38,276 nt of DNA from an uncultured Candidatus Saccharibacteria bacterium. Its GTDB lineage: Bacteria > Patescibacteriota > Minisyncoccia > Phycocordibacterales > UBA918. The first letter of the stretch is position 1; the number at the start of each line of letters is the position of its first letter. Location of the stretch: positions 1 through 38,276 of the forward strand of contig CAYGOP010000002.1 in the NCBI GenBank assembly GCA_964351645.1, written 5' to 3'. The translations under genes and the position numbers were made by a program. Under the pieces are notes generated by a model. The model searched no databases. It was not told the origin of the DNA and was given only the letters and a program-made list of their open reading frames with translations. This document shows positions 34,233 to 38,178 of this stretch, in pieces.

Positions 34233-34829
34233 TTACGCGGCAATTTGCCGCAGGTGGTTGTACCCAGCTTTCCAGCCAGATGTTCGATGTACCAACTGGT
34301 GCACATTTCCGCCCTCATTCCATGGCCGGCTCGGCATAATCACGGGGATGCCAGCAGAAGCGACGTCGTTGGCGTTATGCAGAGCGTCTTCAAACAGTGC
34401 GACCACTCCCAGTTGTTTACATACCTCAGACTTCAGACGCCGCTTTTCCGGATGGAGCAAGCTGGCGCTGTTGGTGAAGTGGTAATCAGTGAACACATTT
34501 ACCCCGTGAGCACTCAACCAATCACAAGTGATATCTGCGAGTGATTCACACCGACTGGTAATCAGGTGTAATTCATAGCGTTTCTCCAGCAATTTGAGTC
34601 CGGCAAATGCCCCAGGAATCAAGCGAATACTGTTGTGTCCTCCTTTGTGACAAAAATCTGTTAAATACACGTGCATTTCTGTCATGGGTACTCCGTACAC
34701 ATCTGGAAAGAAAAATGACCGATGCGTTTCATAGGTTACGTTTGTGCCAAGAATTCTGTTCATGTACGGAATGAACGCTTGGTTAAAGTTTGCGACGATA
34801 TCGTCAAGGTCTACGCCGACTCGTTTCAT
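34233..34829 (-). CDS. HAD-superfamily 5'(3')-deoxyribonucleotidase-like (NT5C) protein
   Basis: VGVDLDDIV, LITSR, T..WL, KSEVCK, LFEDA, PWN. Start MKRVG with SD GGGAG. Confidence 0.85.
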   Translation of the reverse strand: MKRVGVDLDDIVANFNQAFIPYMNRILGTNVTYETHRSFFFPDVYGVPMTEMHVYLTDFCHKGGHNSIRLIPGAFAGLKLLEKRYELHLITSRCESLADITCDWLSAHGVNVFTDYHFTNSASLLHPEKRRLKSEVCKQLGVVALFEDALHNANDVASAGIPVIMPSRPWNEGGNVHQLVHRTSGWKAGYNHLRQIAA

Positions 34830-34923
34830 GGATAGATACTCCCAAAATGACCTATTTACTGTGGCTGAGAGTATCATTGAGCTAATAAATGCACAATATA
34901 GAGATATTGGTATACTCAAGAAC

Positions 34924-35724
34924 ATGAAAATATACTCATGGAATATGAATGGTATCCGAGCGGTACAAAGAAAGGGTTTGTTAGAGCCATTTATTGAAAA
35001 ACACCAACCAGATGTACTCTGTATTCAAGAAACCAAGGCTCAGCAAGACCAAGTCGAGGTGGATTTGCCAGAATATGAGGAATACTGGTGTTCAGCAGAG
35101 AAAAAAGGCTACTCAGGCACGGCTATATTTACCAAGATTGCGCCAGTTGAGGTAATAAATGGTCTACCTGAAGATATCATTCAAAAATACCAACTCGAAG
35201 ACTCCTATGGTGACACGACAAAAGAAGGTCGAGTGATGGTGATGGAATTTGAAGGTTTCTATATTAGTACGGTCTACACGCCAAACGCCAAAGATGACTT
35301 GTCTCGGATTCCGATGCGTCAGCAGTGGGACCCAGCGTACTTGGAATACATGGACCGACTACAGCAAGACAAACCGGTGATTTTTTGTGGCGATTTTAAT
35401 GTGGCCCATACTGAACTTGATTTGGCTCGACCAAAACCAAATGTTGGGAAGAAAGGATTCACTGCTGAGGAACGAAGTGGTTTTGATGCCATGATTGAAA
35501 AAGGGTTTGTCGATACCTTGCGAATTTTTCATCCTGACACCCCCGAACTATACACTTGGTGGTCGCACTTTGGTGGAGCGCGAGAAAGAAATGTGGGGTG
35601 GCGGATTGACTATGTAATGGCATCGCACACCCTTGCTCCGATAATTAAAAACGCCCGCATTCACCCAGATGTTTTAGGTTCCGACCACTGCCCTGTTTCA
35701 ATTGAGCTAAGTATACAAGCGTAG
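34924..35724 (+). CDS. xth: Exodeoxyribonuclease III / AP endonuclease
   Basis: SWNMNGIRA, CIQETK, KKGYSGT, EGR, YTPN, CGDFNVAH, YTWWS, GWRIDY, GSDHCP. Start MKIYSW. Confidence 0.96.
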   Translation: MKIYSWNMNGIRAVQRKGLLEPFIEKHQPDVLCIQETKAQQDQVEVDLPEYEEYWCSAEKKGYSGTAIFTKIAPVEVINGLPEDIIQKYQLEDSYGDTTKEGRVMVMEFEGFYISTVYTPNAKDDLSRIPMRQQWDPAYLEYMDRLQQDKPVIFCGDFNVAHTELDLARPKPNVGKKGFTAEERSGFDAMIEKGFVDTLRIFHPDTPELYTWWSHFGGARERNVGWRIDYVMASHTLAPIIKNARIHPDVLGSDHCPVSIELSIQA

Positions 35725-35795
35725 ATTAGGGTTATTTCACAATAGTAGAAACAACACGAAACACAATAAAGTCAAACGTATTTTATAAAAGACAG

Positions 35796-35814
35796 TTATC
35801 CACACTTATACACA
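35796..35814 (+). promoter_or_regulatory. Two tandem DnaA boxes
   Basis: TTATCCACA-C-TTATACACA, both matching TTWTNCACA, ending 9 bp upstream of a -35. Confidence 0.7.
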
Positions 35815-35823
35815 GGTCTGTCC

Positions 35824-35852
35824 TTTACTCTGTCCTTTATAGGACGTATATT
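35824..35852 (+). promoter_or_regulatory. sigma70 promoter of the candidate large ncRNA
   Basis: TTTACT-17-TATATT, overlapped by a CTGTCCTTTA direct repeat (35818 and 35830). Confidence 0.6.
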
Positions 35853-35858
35853 ATTGGT

Positions 35859-36207
35859 AGGCCCAGAAAGGGCGAGCAGGAACTTCCAGAGTTTTGTACA
35901 GAAGAAATCTTCTGACCAAAACCCTGGAAGTACCCCTTAAAGAGATCTTCCAAAAATCAATTGAGTATTACCTCCCTAGAAGAAATTCTAGAACACTCAA
36001 AAACGTTCATAACATCCCACCCCAGAAGTCAGATGAAACTAAAAAACAGATTCATCACAATAAGACTTCAACACAACGAAGAGCTTCGGAAACAGGTTAG
36101 TCCATAGAGACGCCATCCAGGGTATTAAGCCCTTGTAAGCTCGCAAAGGCCTGGGAAGTCGGTAGACAAATTAATGATTTGCCTTACGACTCCCCAGGCC
36201 TTTTCTT
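35859..36207 (+). ncRNA. Candidate ~345-nt structured non-coding RNA, family not recognised
   Basis: Closing helix GCGAGC/GCTCGC (35872/36139). Hairpins at 35882-35931, 35961-36000 (GAAA loop), 36025-36069, 36077-36088 and 36119-36133. Terminal hairpin 36145-36203 followed by a U-tract. Confidence 0.65.
36145..36207 (+). terminator. Long terminal hairpin/terminator
   Basis: AAAGGCCTGGG-AGTCG...CGACT-CCCAGGCCTTT followed by TCTT. Confidence 0.75.
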
Positions 36208-36282
36208 ATGCCTGGCTAAATAAAGCTTTGCATGAGCTTTATTTTACAACATGATTTAATGAGTGGTATACTGTGATGACCG

Positions 36283-36702
36283 ATGTTTAACTTTGATTTA
36301 ATCAAAGAGGATAATTTCCCGGTCGTATCTGGGTTGTTTGGTGAATCAAAAGATGACTGGGTAGGAAACCTAGATGAAGCGTGGCTCCAGGATATTCTTA
36401 ATACAGAAACCAAAACCGCTTTTATTGTATACACAGAAGCTAAACCGATTGGATATATTCAACTAGAAGAAGAAGTCAAAGATTCCTATGCTTTGGCTAT
36501 TTTTATTACAAAAGAGTTTCGTGGACAAGGGCTTGGTTCGGAGATACTCAAAAGCTTTATAGAAAGCCGACCGAAAAGTGAAGTATTTAAAGCCTACATT
36601 GAAGATACCGATTTTCTCACCAATAGTGCTTTTAGTAGAGCCGGTTTTGAGAAAAGTGGCCCAGCTCCCACCTCGGGATTTTCTGAGTACCTGTACCGTT
36701 AA
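36283..36702 (+). CDS. GNAT N-acetyltransferase
   Basis: PIGYIQL, FRGQGLGSEIL, F.RAGFE. Own promoter TTTACA-18-TATACT. Confidence 0.82.
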   Translation: MFNFDLIKEDNFPVVSGLFGESKDDWVGNLDEAWLQDILNTETKTAFIVYTEAKPIGYIQLEEEVKDSYALAIFITKEFRGQGLGSEILKSFIESRPKSEVFKAYIEDTDFLTNSAFSRAGFEKSGPAPTSGFSEYLYR

Positions 36703-36705
36703 TTA

Positions 36706-38178
36706 TTAAAGGACACCGTGTTCTCGGGCTATGTCCTTTAGTGCTTCAGCCTCCTCTAAGGCTTGTTTTTCTTTACCTGCATCGGCTAGAGCTTTTAGCT
36801 CATTCTCTGGCAGTTGAAGTAATTCAAGAGCGCGTTTCTCCATGTAGTCTTCAGTGTTTCGTGACGCATCATCTAGCGCTTCTTCAAGGAGTGCATGCAG
36901 AACAAAGCCAAGTTTTTTGCCGGGCTTTTCTCCTGATAGTTTCATGATGGTGTCCCCGTTCACTTTTAACATCTTTACGGAGATTGGGTCGCGAAGCGCT
37001 TCGTCAACCATGGCTTTGTATTTTCGGAATCGAAATGGTTGTTCTTTCGGCCGTCCGGTTCCGATGCGGTCGCAGACGCGAAGGTTCAGTAAGTTCTCTA
37101 TGTTCCCTTCTCCAATGCGAGTAATGGTACGGCGGACAGCTGATAGAGTAATTTCTTCAGGGTCTGAGAAAAACATGTGCCACCGAACGAGTGAAACGAC
37201 ATTTTCAATCAGCTCTCGTGAGAGCTTTAGTCGTTCCAGGATTTCTTTGGTCATTCTGGCACCTACTACCTCGTGGCCAAAAAACGTATATTTTTTATTT
37301 TTACCACCAGTTCTACGGGTTTTTGGCTTTCCGATGTCATGAAATAGGGCAGCTAGGCGCATTTCAAGGCTAAAATTCTTATCGGCTGCAGCTTGCAGGG
37401 TACGCAAAAGGTGCTCGTATACATCAAATGCGTGTATTCCCCCTTGTTCGCAGCCAATTGCTGGTAGGAATTCTGGTAGAAATTCTTCCAGTAAGCCAAG
37501 CTTTTCTAGGAAGACAATTCCCTGCATTGGGGCTGCAGATGCCACAATGCGCAAGAATTCTCCAGCTACCCGCTCGGTCGATATACGCTTAATTTGCTTG
37601 CTATGTCGGGCAATTGAAGCCATTGTTTCACCCTCAATTACAAAGTCTAGCTCAGCTGCTAACCGCACCGCTCGCATCATCCGTAGTGCGTCTTCAGCAA
37701 AGCGCTCGTCCGCATCCCCCACTGTCTTCAAGCGCTTGGCAGTAAGGTCATCAATGCCACCAAATTCGTCGACTAAGTCTTCTGTCGTTACTCGATACGC
37801 CAGAGCGTTGACTGTGAAATCACGACGCTTTAGGTCCTCAGTAAGAGATACTCCAAACACCACTGAGTCGGGACGACGGGCGTCACTGTAGGTGCTTTCT
37901 GTTCGGTAGGGAGTCACTTCAATTACTTTCAGTGTATCCTCCTCACTTTCGGTTTTTATACCGACTGTTCCAAAGTCGTTATTAAAATAATGTTCAGGAA
38001 AGAGCCGTTGGATGTCGTCTGGGTGAGCGTTGGTGGTAAAGTCCCAGTCTTTAGGAGTTTTTCCAAGGAATAAATCACGCGTACACCCACCCACTAAATA
38101 AGCTTCAAAACCTGCATTTTCAAGTGTTTCTGCGACTGTGAGCACTTCGTATGGAATGTCGGAGGGTGAGATTTTCAT
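36706..38178 (-). CDS. cca: CCA-adding tRNA nucleotidyltransferase with HD domain
   Basis: YLVGGCTRD, DWDFTT, EDLKRRDFTVNA, RFAEDALRMMRA, STER, DVYEH, LFHDIGKP, FFGHE. A full CCA enzyme cannot be distinguished from CC- or A-adding variants by eye. Confidence 0.88.
   Translation of the reverse strand: MKISPSDIPYEVLTVAETLENAGFEAYLVGGCTRDLFLGKTPKDWDFTTNAHPDDIQRLFPEHYFNNDFGTVGIKTESEEDTLKVIEVTPYRTESTYSDARRPDSVVFGVSLTEDLKRRDFTVNALAYRVTTEDLVDEFGGIDDLTAKRLKTVGDADERFAEDALRMMRAVRLAAELDFVIEGETMASIARHSKQIKRISTERVAGEFLRIVASAAPMQGIVFLEKLGLLEEFLPEFLPAIGCEQGGIHAFDVYEHLLRTLQAAADKNFSLEMRLAALFHDIGKPKTRRTGGKNKKYTFFGHEVVGARMTKEILERLKLSRELIENVVSLVRWHMFFSDPEEITLSAVRRTITRIGEGNIENLLNLRVCDRIGTGRPKEQPFRFRKYKAMVDEALRDPISVKMLKVNGDTIMKLSGEKPGKKLGFVLHALLEEALDDASRNTEDYMEKRALELLQLPENELKALADAGKEKQALEEAEALKDIAREHGVL

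What the first reader, a model, noticed from the sequence alone, without database searches (positions are those of the whole stretch)
35796..36207. Unrecognised ~345-nt structured RNA gene behind tandem DnaA boxes, with exposed C-rich/anti-SD motifs
Seen: the 560-bp gap between xth and the GNAT holds two consensus DnaA boxes and a TTTACT-17-TATATT promoter. These are followed by a multibranch fold closed by GCGAGC/GCTCGC. It contains a 50-nt hairpin (ACTTCCAG/CTGGAAGT, GTTTTG/CAAAAC, CAGAAG/CTTCTG), a GAAA-capped hairpin whose bulge is ACCUCC, a GAAGTC/GACTTC + GATGAA/TTCATC hairpin, two small hairpins, A-rich linkers with C-tracts (ACCCC, UCCCACCCC), and a terminal hairpin with a U-tract. The downstream GNAT has its own promoter, so this looks like a stand-alone transcript. 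Knowledge: it lacks the signatures of tmRNA, RNase P RNA (GAGGAAAGUCC) and SRP helix 8, and is not the 6S rod shape. ACCUCC is the anti-Shine-Dalgarno core, and unpaired C-rich motifs are how RNAIII-type sRNAs bind RBSs. Inference: a novel, possibly DnaA-regulated RNA that could act on SD-led mRNAs. Caveat: four A-C mismatches in the stems would be G-U/G-T pairs on the minus strand, so the strand, or a role as ssDNA/cDNA structure, is not settled.
Basis: partly seen in the sequence, partly recalled or inferred. Interest (0 to 1): 0.8.

Follow-up and report, generated by a model that had tools for sequence, protein, structure and literature searches.

The report
New structured RNA gene in Parcubacteria
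A roughly 350-base gene for a folded, non-coding RNA of no known family sits between two housekeeping genes in one group of ultra-small bacteria, always displays a ribosome-like "ACCUCC" loop, and has a promoter carrying binding-site-like sequences for the replication starter DnaA; what it does is still unknown.

Summary
Window 35859 to about 36207 (+) is a stand-alone structured ncRNA gene. It has a sigma-70-type promoter (TTTACT-17-TATATT) and a long hairpin plus U-tract terminator.

It is single-copy. A covariance model of its 5' domain finds exactly one copy in 113 of 127 other genomes of the same genus. It finds none in 149 genomes of other families of the order. Record titles place the genus in Patescibacteria/Parcubacteria.

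The RNA always lies after xth and convergent with cca. Compensatory changes support helices P1/P2, P3, P5, P5a and the terminator. G-U versus A-C counts, the promoter and the U-tract put it on the plus strand.

No Rfam family matches. RNase P RNA and tmRNA lie elsewhere in the genome. The 68-aa ORF is not conserved.

GCUC pairs instead with an internal GAGC and closes a 3' three-way junction.

Two DnaA-box-like 9-mers sit at fixed -63 and -53 positions in most homologs. UACCUCC is invariant (63 of 63) in a loop whose stem covaries.

Function is untested. My best guess is a trans-acting regulator that uses this anti-SD-like loop, or a protein decoy.

The parts
35750..35776 (+). Conserved upstream element (AACAACACGAAACACAATAAAGTCAAA), about -109 to -83 from the inferred start. 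It stays with the RNA promoter when insertions separate it from xth.
   Evidence: Conserved columns in the 33-locus alignment. The distance from the xth stop to the RNA start varies from 74 to 349 nt, while this element keeps its place next to the promoter. Function unknown.
35785..35794 (.). Half-site ATAAAAGACA, a degenerate copy of TAAAGGACA. It is the inverted partner of TGTCCTTTA at 35819. In many homologs a perfect palindrome, TGTCCTTTATAAAGGACA, lies further upstream.
   Evidence: Positions of AAGGAC/GTCCTT half-sites in 63 homologs: -72 or -82, -92, -39 (38 or 39 nt upstream in all 63), and -27 or -19.
35796..35814 (+). Two tandem DnaA-box-like 9-mers, TTATCCACA and TTATACACA, 10 bp apart, at -63 and -53.
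   Evidence: Box 1 has at most 1 mismatch to TTATCCACA in 43 of 63 homologs and box 2 in 41 of 63. Control offsets show at least 3-4 mismatches in nearly all homologs.
35819..35845 (.). Operator-like repeats: TGTCCTTTA at 35819-35827 (overlaps the -35) and at 35831-35839, plus the palindrome GTCCTTTATAGGAC at 35832-35845 in the promoter spacer.
   Evidence: TGTCCTTTAC is above 90% conserved in the ungapped -80..+3 comparison. The genome holds only 8 copies of TGTCCTTTA, and 4 of them are in this locus.
35824..35852 (+). Sigma-70-type promoter: -35 TTTACT (35824-35829), 17-bp spacer, -10 TATATT (35847-35852).
   Evidence: 9 of 12 matches. In all 63 homologs a TAnnAT-like hexamer ends 6 nt (8 nt in 5 of them) before the first conserved RNA base, and a TTTACn-type -35 lies 16-17 bp upstream.
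35859..36207 (+). The ncRNA itself, about 349 nt. The 5' end is inferred from promoter geometry and from where invariant sequence begins. The 3' end is inferred from the terminator.
   Evidence: Homologs are 301-519 nt long.
35861..35873 (+). P1: 4-bp hairpin GCCC/GGGC with loop AGAAA, almost invariant.
   Evidence: 3 of the 4 pairs never vary and 100% of cells pair. Invariance means it is neither supported nor contradicted by covariation.
35874..35938 (+). P2: long hairpin. Its base is G16-U80, A17-U79, G18-C78, with a conserved internal GAG/CCC region. The distal part varies in length.
   Evidence: 17 of 23 pairs in the 5' domain show changes on both sides. 95.0% of cells pair, against 78.3% in shuffles and 30-59% when partners are slid.
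35939..35960 (+). J2/3: conserved single-stranded linker (AAAGAGAUCUUCCAAAAAUCAA).
   Evidence: Conserved columns (UUAAAGAG nearly invariant). No supported partner was found.
35961..36000 (+). P3: stem UUGAGU/ACUCAA (35961-35966 with 35995-36000) that displays UUACCUCC (35968-35975). In this genome an inserted GAAA-capped hairpin, P3a, lies at 35976-35991.
   Evidence: UACCUCC is present in 63 of 63 homologs. The stem has many different sequences, e.g. AGAUAU/AUAUCU, GUUAGA/UCUAAC, AGGUUGU/ACAACCU.
36001..36024 (+). J3/4: A/C-rich linker AAAACGUUCAUAACAUCCCACCCC.
   Evidence: Conserved in the close homologs and replaced in divergent ones. CC[ACU]CC motifs occur 3.19 times per RNA, against 1.18 in shuffles.
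36025..36069 (+). P4: variable hairpin (GAAGUC/GACUUC plus GAUGAA/UUCAUC).
   Evidence: Present in the single-sequence folds of 9 of 9 homologs folded. The alignment here was too poor for formal pair counts.
36081..36142 (+). 3' three-way junction: P5 GAGCUU/AAGCUC (36081-36086 with 36137-36142), P5a 36095-36114 (GGU-UA-GUC ... GAC-GCC), P5b 36119-36133.
   Evidence: P5 covaries: GAGUCAU/AUGACUC, GAACUU/AAGUUC, GAGCAC/GUGCUC, GAGCC/GGCUC. 57 of the 61 sequences with a P5 fold into two enclosed hairpins. P5a has 3 of 6 pairs compensatory.
36146..36208 (+). Intrinsic terminator: long interrupted hairpin followed by UUUUCUUA.
   Evidence: 17 of 21 pairs show changes on both sides. A U-tract on the plus strand is kept in all 33 loci.

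Best explanation
Shown by comparison: window 35859 to about 36207 (+) is a stand-alone gene for a modular, structured non-coding RNA of about 350 nt that belongs to no described family. It is transcribed from its own sigma-70-type promoter and ends at an intrinsic terminator. It is single-copy and nearly universal in one Parcubacteria genus.

Its architecture, in order:
- a 5' hairpin pair (P1 and P2);
- a conserved single-stranded linker;
- hairpin P3, whose loop always shows UACCUCC;
- an A/C-rich linker;
- a variable hairpin (P4);
- a three-way junction (P5, P5a, P5b);
- the terminator.

Inferred, not shown: it acts in trans. The invariant loop has the same sense as the anti-Shine-Dalgarno core of 16S rRNA (CCUCC, a recalled motif). 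Together with the extra CC[ACU]CC motifs, it would pair with G-rich ribosome-binding sites of the minority of SD-led mRNAs and block their translation. This is the way C-rich-loop sRNAs work.

Also inferred: its synthesis is tied to replication status through the two DnaA-box-like sites just upstream of the -35. It would also answer to an unknown regulator that binds the TGTCCTTTA/TAAAGGACA palindromes overlapping the -35 and the spacer.

My odds: about 0.9 that it is a real plus-strand ncRNA gene, about 0.35 for the anti-SD pairing mechanism, and about 0.4 for DnaA binding.
For: **Gene status**
- One copy in the own genome.
- blastn matches in 105 of 127 genus genomes.
- Covariance model R1 finds one hit each in 113 of 127 genus genomes, and none in 149 genomes of other families of the order.
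- Constant position after xth and convergent with cca: 31 of 33 loci show both genes, and the other 2 are cut by contig ends.
- The downstream neighbour varies. GNAT is present only here, 1 of 33 loci, so the element is not a leader.

**Structure**
- 5' domain: 95.0% of cells paired against 78.3% in shuffles; 17 of 23 pairs compensatory; 0 of 500 shuffles reach the observed values; slid controls 30-59%.
- 3' part: 97.1% against 83.9%; 20 of 31 pairs compensatory.
- P3 and P5 stems occur in many different sequences.

**Strand**
- G-U to A-C cells are 110:30 in the 5' domain and 62:16 in the 3' part.
- The promoter and the U-tract are on the plus strand.

**Not coding**
- Only 8 of 63 homologs keep the frame open around the motif. 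The longest ORFs have a median of 30 aa and start at varying places.

**No known family**
-. RNase P RNA and tmRNA lie on other contigs.

**Loop and C-rich motifs**
- UACCUCC in 63 of 63.
- CC[ACU]CC at 3.19 per RNA against 1.18 in shuffles; base composition A 34.5%, C 24.9%, G 18.4%.

**DnaA**
- Boxes at fixed -63 and -53.
- In this genome, tandem boxes no more than 30 bp apart occur at only 5 places. One is directly upstream of dnaA and two are in a box cluster on C82.
Against: - No transcript has been shown. The only RNA run holding related sequence gives contigs of a relative that also cover the promoter, and the library may contain DNA.
- No target site is complementary to the conserved single-stranded segments beyond chance; the best E-value is 0.076.
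- SD-led genes are few. An SD core lies at -20..-3 in 14.4% of 599 well-defined starts, against 9.5% in a control window. Promoter -10-like 4-mers are what is enriched upstream of starts, which suggests many leaderless mRNAs. A global anti-SD role is therefore unlikely.
- An invariant 7-mer loop fits a protein-binding site just as well.
- Perfect TTATCCACA is not enriched genome-wide: 14 copies, against my own rough composition estimate of about 11, which no call computed. The DnaA argument rests on conserved position only.
- 19 of 63 homologs have no strict TTWTNCACA match.
Confidence: 0.4

Rival explanations
1. Same RNA gene, but it works by binding protein. It would be a decoy or scaffold whose invariant UACCUCC loop imitates the 3' end of 16S rRNA and sequesters or delivers a factor that recognises that sequence. 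Alternatively it is the RNA part of a genus-specific ribonucleoprotein.
For: - Loops and linkers are invariant while the stems vary freely.
- P1 is invariant.
- There is a conserved three-way junction with a fixed bulge.
- No mRNA target stands out, and SD use in the genome is low.
- The RNA is large and has several domains, which is unusual for a pure antisense sRNA.
Against: - No partner protein is indicated. The neighbours xth, cca and GNAT are explained by general synteny within the genus.
- Nothing was tested. The likeness to the 16S 3' end rests on a recalled short motif, and the 16S gene is not in this assembly.
Confidence: 0.3
2. A cis-acting part of a neighbouring mRNA: a long structured 3' UTR or terminator region of xth, or an insulator between the convergent xth and cca genes.
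For: - It always follows xth, and xth has no obvious terminator of its own before it.
- The RNA-library contig of a relative runs from upstream of the promoter into the RNA.
Against: - A strong, position-fixed promoter lies directly in front of the first conserved base in 63 of 63 homologs.
- Sequence between the xth stop and the promoter region is variable in length (74-349 nt) and content.
- 350 nt with invariant loops is far more than termination needs.
Confidence: 0.05
3. The conserved thing is DNA, not RNA: a DnaA-titrating or origin-like site, or a transcription-factor landing pad. On this reading the hairpins are incidental.
For: - Conserved DnaA-box-like pair and palindromic half-sites.
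- The gene lies 37-93 kb from dnaA in three one-contig genomes of 1.0-1.1 Mb.
Against: - The compensatory changes keep base pairs, not sequence, and G-U is favoured over A-C. DNA-level selection explains neither.
- There are only two boxes.
- A larger box cluster lies directly upstream of dnaA on another contig.
- The protein-site-like motifs are confined to the approximately 110 bp upstream of the RNA.
Confidence: 0.04
4. The RNA is made from the minus strand. The reader raised this because A-C mismatches would become G-U pairs on that strand.
For: The minus strand folds to a lower energy (-137.1 kcal/mol, z = -8.4).
Against: - Across homologs, plus-strand G-U cells outnumber A-C cells 110:30 and 62:16.
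- G16-U80 is a G-U pair in 56 of 62 sequences. It would be an A-C mismatch on the minus strand.
- The promoter and U-tract are on the plus strand.
Confidence: 0.03
5. It encodes the 68-aa protein of ORF 35894-36100.
For: The ORF exists in this genome.
Against: - Only 8 of 63 homologs have no stop in that frame from 20 codons before to 30 codons after the ACCUCC motif.
- The longest ORFs have a median of 30 aa and start at many different places.
- Indels in the alignment are not multiples of three.
Confidence: 0.01

Closest known systems
C-rich-loop regulatory RNAs of Firmicutes (Staphylococcus RNAIII, RsaE/RoxS); named from my own knowledge, no paper read here
   Same: - Stand-alone transcript with its own promoter and intrinsic terminator.
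- Several hairpins separated by unpaired A-rich linkers.
- Conserved C-rich motifs displayed in loops and linkers, complementary to G-rich ribosome-binding sites.
- RNAIII is also several hundred nucleotides long.
   Different: - No sequence or covariance-model similarity.
- The motif here is the full anti-SD core ACCUCC, not UCCC or CCCC.
- No targets are known.
- The host uses few SD sequences.
- The promoter carries DnaA-box-like sites.
- Restricted to one Parcubacteria genus.
CcnA of Caulobacter crescentus (PMC8959179; I read matching passages only)
   Same: It is a non-coding RNA whose transcription is tied to a master regulator of the cell cycle. It acts through a CCCC loop that protects GGGG in the 5' UTRs of target mRNAs. 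Here too a C-rich loop is combined with replication-regulator sites at the promoter.
   Different: - CcnA lies inside the replication origin and is thought to be activated by CtrA, not DnaA.
- This RNA lies 37-93 kb from dnaA.
- No homology was seen.
- This RNA is larger and has a three-way junction.
Large bacterial ncRNAs of unknown function found by comparative genomics (OLE, GOLLD, HEARO, ROOL, raiA; named from my own knowledge)
   Same: More than 300 nt, several covarying helices, conserved unpaired nucleotides, and no known function.
   Different: - None of their Rfam models matches, in the window or in 14 divergent homolog loci.
- This RNA has a narrower range (one genus).
- A larger share of it is unstructured linker.
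Housekeeping RNAs of similar size (tmRNA, RNase P RNA, SRP RNA, 6S RNA)
   Same: Single copy, nearly universal within the clade, of comparable length, with its own promoter and terminator.
   Different: - tmRNA and RNase P RNA are found elsewhere in the genome at or above the Rfam cut-offs.
- There is no SRP or 6S model match here.
- No Ffh or FtsY gene is detectable.
- The fold is not a 6S-like rod.

Membership tests
Any Rfam 15 family | Match to the family covariance model at or above its gathering score | tested here: not met
   0 matches in the whole window. In E-value mode, only sub-threshold miRNA and snoRNA hairpin matches. In 14 divergent homolog loci, no family recurs on the RNA.
tmRNA | tRNA-like domain plus tag reading frame (ARAGORN or RF00023) | tested here: not met
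   ARAGORN finds none in the window. The genome's tmRNA is at C84:2148-2541, 107 bits.
Bacterial RNase P RNA | Match to RF00010 | tested here: not met
   The genome's RNase P RNA is at C28:9486-9836, 103.8 bits. There is no match in the window.
SRP RNA (4.5S or large type) | Match to RF00169 or RF01854, and presence of the partner protein Ffh | tested here: not met
   No match in the own genome or in this region at E up to 10. No SRP_SPB or SRP54 domain in the genome. No SRP-type GTPase motif in any frame.
6S RNA | Match to RF00013; rod-like fold with a large central bubble, 5' and 3' ends paired | tested here: not met
   No RF00013 match. The comparative structure is a string of separate hairpins plus a three-way junction, and the ends are not paired.
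Riboswitch or cis-regulatory leader | Constant downstream gene on the same strand, controlled by the element | tested here: not met
   The downstream neighbour is the convergent cca. GNAT is present in 1 of 33 loci. The space to cca varies, with the whole intergenic region measuring 567-1644 nt.
C-rich-loop trans-acting sRNA (RNAIII / RsaE type; a functional class) | Independent transcript with promoter and terminator | tested here: met
   By sequence and conservation only. No RNA 5' or 3' ends were mapped.
C-rich-loop trans-acting sRNA (RNAIII / RsaE type; a functional class) | Conserved unpaired C-rich motifs | tested here: met
   UACCUCC in 63 of 63 homologs, in a loop closed by a covarying stem. 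CC[ACU]CC enriched 2.7-fold over shuffles.
C-rich-loop trans-acting sRNA (RNAIII / RsaE type; a functional class) | Base-pairing with ribosome-binding sites of defined target mRNAs | tested here: inconclusive
   No site beyond chance. There are 245 GGAGGU[AG] sites in the genome, and 36 of them lie before a possible start. The SD core is only weakly enriched upstream of starts. Binding itself is not testable with these tools.
DnaA-regulated promoter | Sequences matching the DnaA-box consensus (TTWTNCACA, recalled) next to the promoter and conserved among relatives | tested here: met
   Boxes at -63 and -53. At least one strict match in 44 of 63 homologs and two in 11 of 63. At most 1 mismatch to TTATCCACA in 43 and 41 of 63.
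DnaA-regulated promoter | DnaA binds and changes transcription | not testable with these tools
   Needs EMSA, footprinting or a reporter assay.
Chromosomal replication origin (oriC) | Cluster of several DnaA boxes with an unwinding element, usually next to dnaA | tested here: not met
   Only two boxes here. dnaA is on another contig with its own cluster of 4 boxes within 440 bp upstream. In three one-contig genomes the RNA lies 37-93 kb from dnaA.

The most novel reading that the evidence does not exclude
This is the first riboregulator described for the Candidate Phyla Radiation. It would be a DnaA-gated RNA, tied to the replication cycle, whose invariant hairpin loop copies the anti-Shine-Dalgarno end of 16S rRNA. 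In an organism that translates mostly leaderless mRNAs, it would specifically capture the small set of SD-led mRNAs, or a factor that reads the 16S 3' end. That would link replication initiation to a switch in what gets translated.
Probability: 0.15. Interest if true: 0.8.

Novelty: new variant of a known kind. Interest (0 to 1): 0.6.

Why it matters
- I know of almost nothing on RNA-based regulation in Patescibacteria (CPR), which make up a large share of bacterial diversity, have tiny genomes and have few recognisable regulators. My two literature searches on the topic found nothing.
- A 350-nt single-copy RNA kept in about 90% of the genomes of a genus, with invariant loops and well-supported helices, is a concrete and testable entry point.
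- If the DnaA boxes are real, this would be a rare case of an sRNA wired to the replication initiator.
- If the loop works as an anti-SD mimic, it bears on how translation is controlled in a largely leaderless organism.
- The covariance model can be used now to annotate this gene in MAGs, where it currently reads as an empty 560-bp gap.

Tried and rejected
**Known RNA families.** Rfam at gathering and E-value thresholds, on the window and on 14 homolog loci, gave only chance hairpin matches.

**SRP RNA idea.** I pursued this because no SRP RNA was found. I dropped it because Ffh and FtsY are also undetectable and the 5' hairpin lacks a 5' partner strand.

**Closing helix GCGAGC/GCUCGC.** Rejected.

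**RNAalifold pairing of GAG (J2/3) with CUC of the ACCUCC motif.** Both sides are invariant, so it is untestable. The covarying P3 stem that encloses the motif makes a displayed loop more likely.

**Formal pair counts for P3, P4 and P5b.** The MAFFT alignment is out of register in these variable parts. I used per-sequence helix searches and constrained folds instead.
- In one search the automatic P5 pick was wrong or missing for 12 of 63 sequences: L013, L034, L084, L087, L096, L116, L080, L109, L078, L091, L064, L074.
- The looser rule found a P5 for 61 of 63 (none for L091 and L074). Some of those picks (L013, L078, L064, L080, L109) look doubtful.

**Wider distribution.** CM search of 150 other genomes of the class gave one 27-bit hit (E = 0.0046). 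On inspection it shares only a UUACCUCCA-like stretch, so I treat it as chance. These searches score only about 23-28 candidates per genome, so "not found" is not "absent".

**Expression.** One RNA run held 4% of the sampled words. Laid at 85% likeness, it gave 5 contig pieces of relatives, all under 95% alike (4 of the 5 under 90%). One 394-nt contig covers 35818-35977 and 36024-36086 and extends about 97 nt upstream of 35818. These are contigs in a library that may hold DNA. They show no start, end, strand or level, so there is no verdict on transcription.

**Target search.**
- blastn-short of four conserved single-stranded segments against the genome gave nothing above chance.
- The list of GGAGGU[AG] sites before possible starts shows no pattern.
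- The first crude SD estimate was replaced by the stricter one.

**16S 3' end.** It is not in this assembly, so the loop could not be compared with the organism's own anti-SD.

**Operator motif regulon.** TGTCCTTT half-sites are not enriched (21 found, 38 expected). Pairs occur only at this promoter, inside the 3' end of cca, and inside an ORF on C18. No regulator was identified.

**Literature.**
- Searches for Patescibacteria or Parcubacteria with structured or noncoding RNA terms found no description of this RNA in the listings.
- A search for DnaA box with small RNA terms gave CcnA as the nearest analogue; I read passages only.
- A search on SRP in CPR was inconclusive. The SRP genes in PMC10768705 carry the locus-tag prefix used for host (XH001) genes in the passages I read, so I read them as host genes.
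- Supplements were not consulted.

Full report
**Setting.** The finding lies in the 558-bp gap between xth and a GNAT acetyltransferase gene. xth (exodeoxyribonuclease III, +) ends at 35724, and GNAT (+) runs from 36283 to 36702. A CCA-adding enzyme gene follows on the minus strand at 36706-38178. The window is the whole of contig C2 of a 1.06-Mb assembly in 86 contigs, 98.8% complete. Titles of related public records name Patescibacteria/Parcubacteria, with labels such as Paceibacteria, Kaiserbacteria and Nomurabacteria.

- The region 35859-36210 folds much better than shuffles on both strands: plus strand -113.2 kcal/mol, z = -8.3; minus strand -137.1 kcal/mol, z = -8.4; 0 of 100 shuffles as good in each case.
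- Rfam has nothing at gathering thresholds anywhere in the window.
- At E up to 10 there are only sub-threshold miRNA and snoRNA hairpin matches.
- ARAGORN finds no tRNA or tmRNA.

**Conservation and context.**
- The element is single-copy in the own genome.
- blastn finds it in 105 of 127 other genomes of the same genus, never more than one locus per genome.
- Among 16 genomes from other families of the order, blastn finds only a 25-nt piece covering the DnaA-box area in one of them.
- In 33 loci examined, xth precedes the element in all 33, and cca follows on the opposite strand in 31. The other two are cut by contig ends.
- GNAT occurs only in the own genome. The xth-cca gap measures 567-1644 nt.
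- The element therefore sits between convergent genes, so it cannot be a leader of a conserved downstream gene.
- All 33 loci have the same first bases (AGGCCCA) and a hairpin plus T-tract 342-437 nt further on.
- Eighty further named loci, fetched through xth, gave nhmmer matches in 70 of 80.
- Pooling both sets and removing duplicates left 63 distinct full-length homologs of 301-519 nt.

**Promoter.**
- The scan tool reports TTTACT-17-TATATT at 35824-35852.
- In all 63 homologs a TAnnAT-like hexamer ends 6 nt before the first invariant base (8 nt in five homologs). The commonest forms are TACTAT 21, TATATT 17 and TAGTAT 11.
- A TTTACn-type -35 lies 16-17 bp upstream.
- I therefore place +1 at A35859. 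This is an inference from geometry and from where invariance begins, not a mapped end.

**DnaA-box-like sites.**
- They lie at -63 and -53, both on the plus strand and 10 bp apart.
- At least one strict match to TTWTNCACA (consensus recalled) occurs in 44 of 63 homologs, and two in 11 of 63.
- Box 1 has at most one mismatch to TTATCCACA in 43 of 63 and box 2 in 41 of 63. At four control offsets nearly all homologs have at least 3-4 mismatches.
- A single perfect box is not remarkable in this genome: there are 14, and my rough composition estimate, computed in no call, is about 11.
- Tandem boxes no more than 30 bp apart, however, occur at only five places. These are here, directly upstream of dnaA (C16), once on C20, and twice in a box cluster on C82.

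**Operator-like repeats.** The promoter is also framed by a second repeated motif, TGTCCTTTA and its complement TAAAGGACA.
- The copy overlapping the -35 is invariant.
- Others lie at about -72 or -82, often forming a perfect 18-bp palindrome with a copy at -92.
- A further copy lies in the spacer at -27 or -19, in either orientation.
- Use in either orientation argues for a protein site rather than RNA structure. No regulator was identified.

**Structure.** RNAalifold on 33 full-length sequences gave 57 pairs, 36 of them with compensatory changes. I refined this with the 63-sequence set.
- **5' domain, 62 sequences** (one near-duplicate dropped). 95.0% of 1383 cells form standard pairs, against 78.3% in shuffles and 30-59% when partners are slid. 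17 of 23 pairs show changes on both sides, and 0 of 500 shuffles reach any of the five observed measures.
- **P1 and P2.** P1 (35861-35873) is invariant, so covariation says nothing about it. P2 (35874-35938) is strongly supported, including its base. Position 17 pairs with the nucleotide two after the C-run: A-U in 51, C-G in 7, G-C in 3, G-U in 1.
5' variants GCGC, GGGC and AGGC leave the 3' GCUC unchanged.
- **P5.** The GCUC pairs instead with an internal GAGC to form P5 (36081-36086 with 36137-36142). P5 covaries: GAGUCAU/AUGACUC, GAACUU/AAGUUC, GAGCAC/GUGCUC, GAGCC/GGCUC.
- **Three-way junction.** P5 encloses two hairpins in 57 of the 61 sequences for which a P5 was found. This makes a three-way junction.
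- **3' part, 33 sequences.** 97.1% paired against 83.9% in shuffles, and 20 of 31 pairs compensatory. One of the five measures (further pair types) was reached by 108 of 500 shuffles.
- **P3.** It closes a loop holding UACCUCC. The 7-mer is present in 63 of 63 homologs. The stem takes many sequences, e.g. UUGAGU/ACUCAA, AGAAU/AUUCU, AGAUAU/AUAUCU, GUUAGA/UCUAAC, AGGUUGU/ACAACCU. In this genome and many others a small hairpin is inserted 3' of the motif (35976-35991).
- **P4** (36025-36069). It varies in length and sequence but appears in 9 of 9 single-sequence folds. The alignment there was too poor for pair counts.

**Strand.** Three lines of evidence settle on the plus strand.
- Across homologs, plus-strand G-U cells outnumber A-C cells 110:30 in the 5' domain and 62:16 in the 3' part.
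- The base pair G16-U80 is a G-U pair in 56 of 62 sequences.
- The promoter and the U-tract are also on the plus strand.

**Not coding.** The 68-aa ORF is open in only 8 of 63 homologs around the motif. The longest ORFs have a median of 30 aa and begin at many different positions.

**Distribution.** Covariance model R1 covers the 5' domain (121 positions, 23 pairs).
- It finds exactly one hit in each of 113 of 127 other genus genomes, and in 88 of 97 high-quality genomes when the own genome is counted.
- It finds none in 149 genomes of other families of the order.
- Among 150 other genomes of the class it finds one 27-bit hit, which on inspection is chance.
- These searches score a limited number of candidates per genome, so outside the genus the RNA is "not found in those searched", not "absent".

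**Membership in known families.**
- RNase P RNA (C28, 103.8 bits) and tmRNA (C84, 107 bits) are elsewhere in the genome.
- 6S and SRP RNA models find nothing.
- I considered a divergent SRP RNA. The genome shows no Ffh M domain, no SRP54-type GTPase domain and no SRP-GTPase motif in any frame, so there is no partner for such an RNA.
- Fourteen divergent homolog loci scanned against Rfam at E up to 1 give no recurring family.
- An origin of replication is excluded. dnaA with its own 4-box cluster is on another contig. In three one-contig genomes the RNA lies 38.6, 37.3 and 92.6 kb from dnaA.

**What it may do.**
- The conserved parts are mainly unpaired: the UACCUCC loop, J2/3 (UUAAAGAG...) and the A/C-rich J3/4.
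- CC[ACU]CC motifs are 2.7-fold more frequent than in shuffles (3.19 against 1.18 per RNA). The RNA is A/C-rich and G-poor.
- This is the design of sRNAs that pair with G-rich ribosome-binding sites, and the loop has the sense of the anti-SD core (recalled).

Three results count against a broad role of that kind.
- No complementary site stands out.
- Strong SD sequences are rare. GGAGG lies upstream of 2.7% of 599 well-defined starts. Any SD core lies upstream of 14.4%, against 9.5% in a control window.
- The 4-mers most enriched just upstream of starts look like promoter -10 boxes, so many mRNAs may be leaderless.

The RNA could therefore act on a small SD-led regulon. Equally, it could be a protein decoy or scaffold that presents a 16S-3'-end-like loop. 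The data do not decide between these, and I give the pairing model a slight edge. DnaA control is a reasonable inference from the conserved box pair but is unproven.

**Expression.** The single RNA run that held any of the sequence contains contigs from relatives that overlap both the RNA and its promoter. This shows nothing about a transcript.

**Literature.** Two full-text searches combining Patescibacteria or Parcubacteria with structured or noncoding RNA terms listed nothing on this RNA. A search on DnaA boxes and small RNAs pointed to CcnA of Caulobacter. From passages only, CcnA is a cell-cycle-regulated ncRNA with a CCCC loop that binds GGGG in 5' UTRs. It is an analogue in logic, not a relative.

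**Verdict.** This is a real, previously undescribed, genus-restricted structured ncRNA gene on the plus strand. It has a well-supported secondary structure, a regulated-looking promoter and an invariant anti-SD-like loop. Function and transcript ends remain to be shown.

Noticed in passing
whole genome G000; genus, order and phylum samples: No signal-recognition-particle machinery was detected.
- Own genome: no SRP RNA (RF00169, RF01854), no Ffh M domain (PF02978), no SRP54-type GTPase domain (PF00448, which would also cover FtsY). No DTAGR-type GTPase motif in any frame, except in one short C-terminal stretch on C44 that I take to be an unrelated small protein.
- RF00169: 0 of 41 genus genomes and 0 of 40 order genomes.
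- ffh model (TIGR00959): 0 of 41 over its cut-off.
- PF02978: 0 of 121 genomes across the phylum.
- The controls ring in 12-14 of 14 named genomes.
- I could not establish whether this is already in print (listing only, passages).
   Followed up: partly
whole genome G000: Translation starts look mostly SD-less. An SD core lies at -20..-3 in 14.4% of 599 well-defined starts, against 9.5% in a control window. The 4-mers most enriched just upstream of starts (GATA, ATAC, ATAA, TATA, TAAT) look like promoter -10 boxes, which suggests many leaderless mRNAs. The GNAT gene here fits: its -10 TATACT ends 10 nt before the ATG.
   Followed up: partly
window 36707-36740: An inverted pair of the same operator-like 9-mer (TAAAGGACA, 16 nt, TGTCCTTTA) lies inside the last codons of cca on the opposite strand. 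With the two copies in the RNA promoter, that makes 4 of the genome's 8 copies of TGTCCTTTA within 1 kb.
   Followed up: no
G000 contig C22, about 2540-2700 (L159): A second intergenic region combines a GTCAAA element, two adjacent DnaA-box-like sequences in the opposite orientation, AAAGACA and TGTCCTTTAC. It lies upstream of a 137-aa ORF whose family I did not test. It may be a second promoter of the same regulatory type.
   Followed up: partly
G000 contig C16 7870-8307 and contig C82 2108-2281: These are clusters of DnaA-box-like sites. Four lie within 440 bp directly upstream of dnaA (the gene's Bac_DnaA domain is at C16:6963-7442, minus strand). Four more lie within 175 bp on a 2.9-kb contig. 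They are probably parts of the replication origin.
   Followed up: no
window 36218-36245 and 36243-36272: A second small hairpin with a T-run (AAAUAAAGCU ... AGCUUUAUUU) follows the RNA terminator and overlaps the -35 of the GNAT promoter. The GNAT gene is present in only this one of 33 related loci, so it looks like a recent insertion between the RNA gene and cca.
   Followed up: no
window 34744-34925: The longest xth ORF, as listed, starts at GTG 34744 and overlaps the upstream minus-strand gene (34233-34925). Homolog matches begin at about 34924 (MKIYSWNM), so the true start is probably there.
   Followed up: partly
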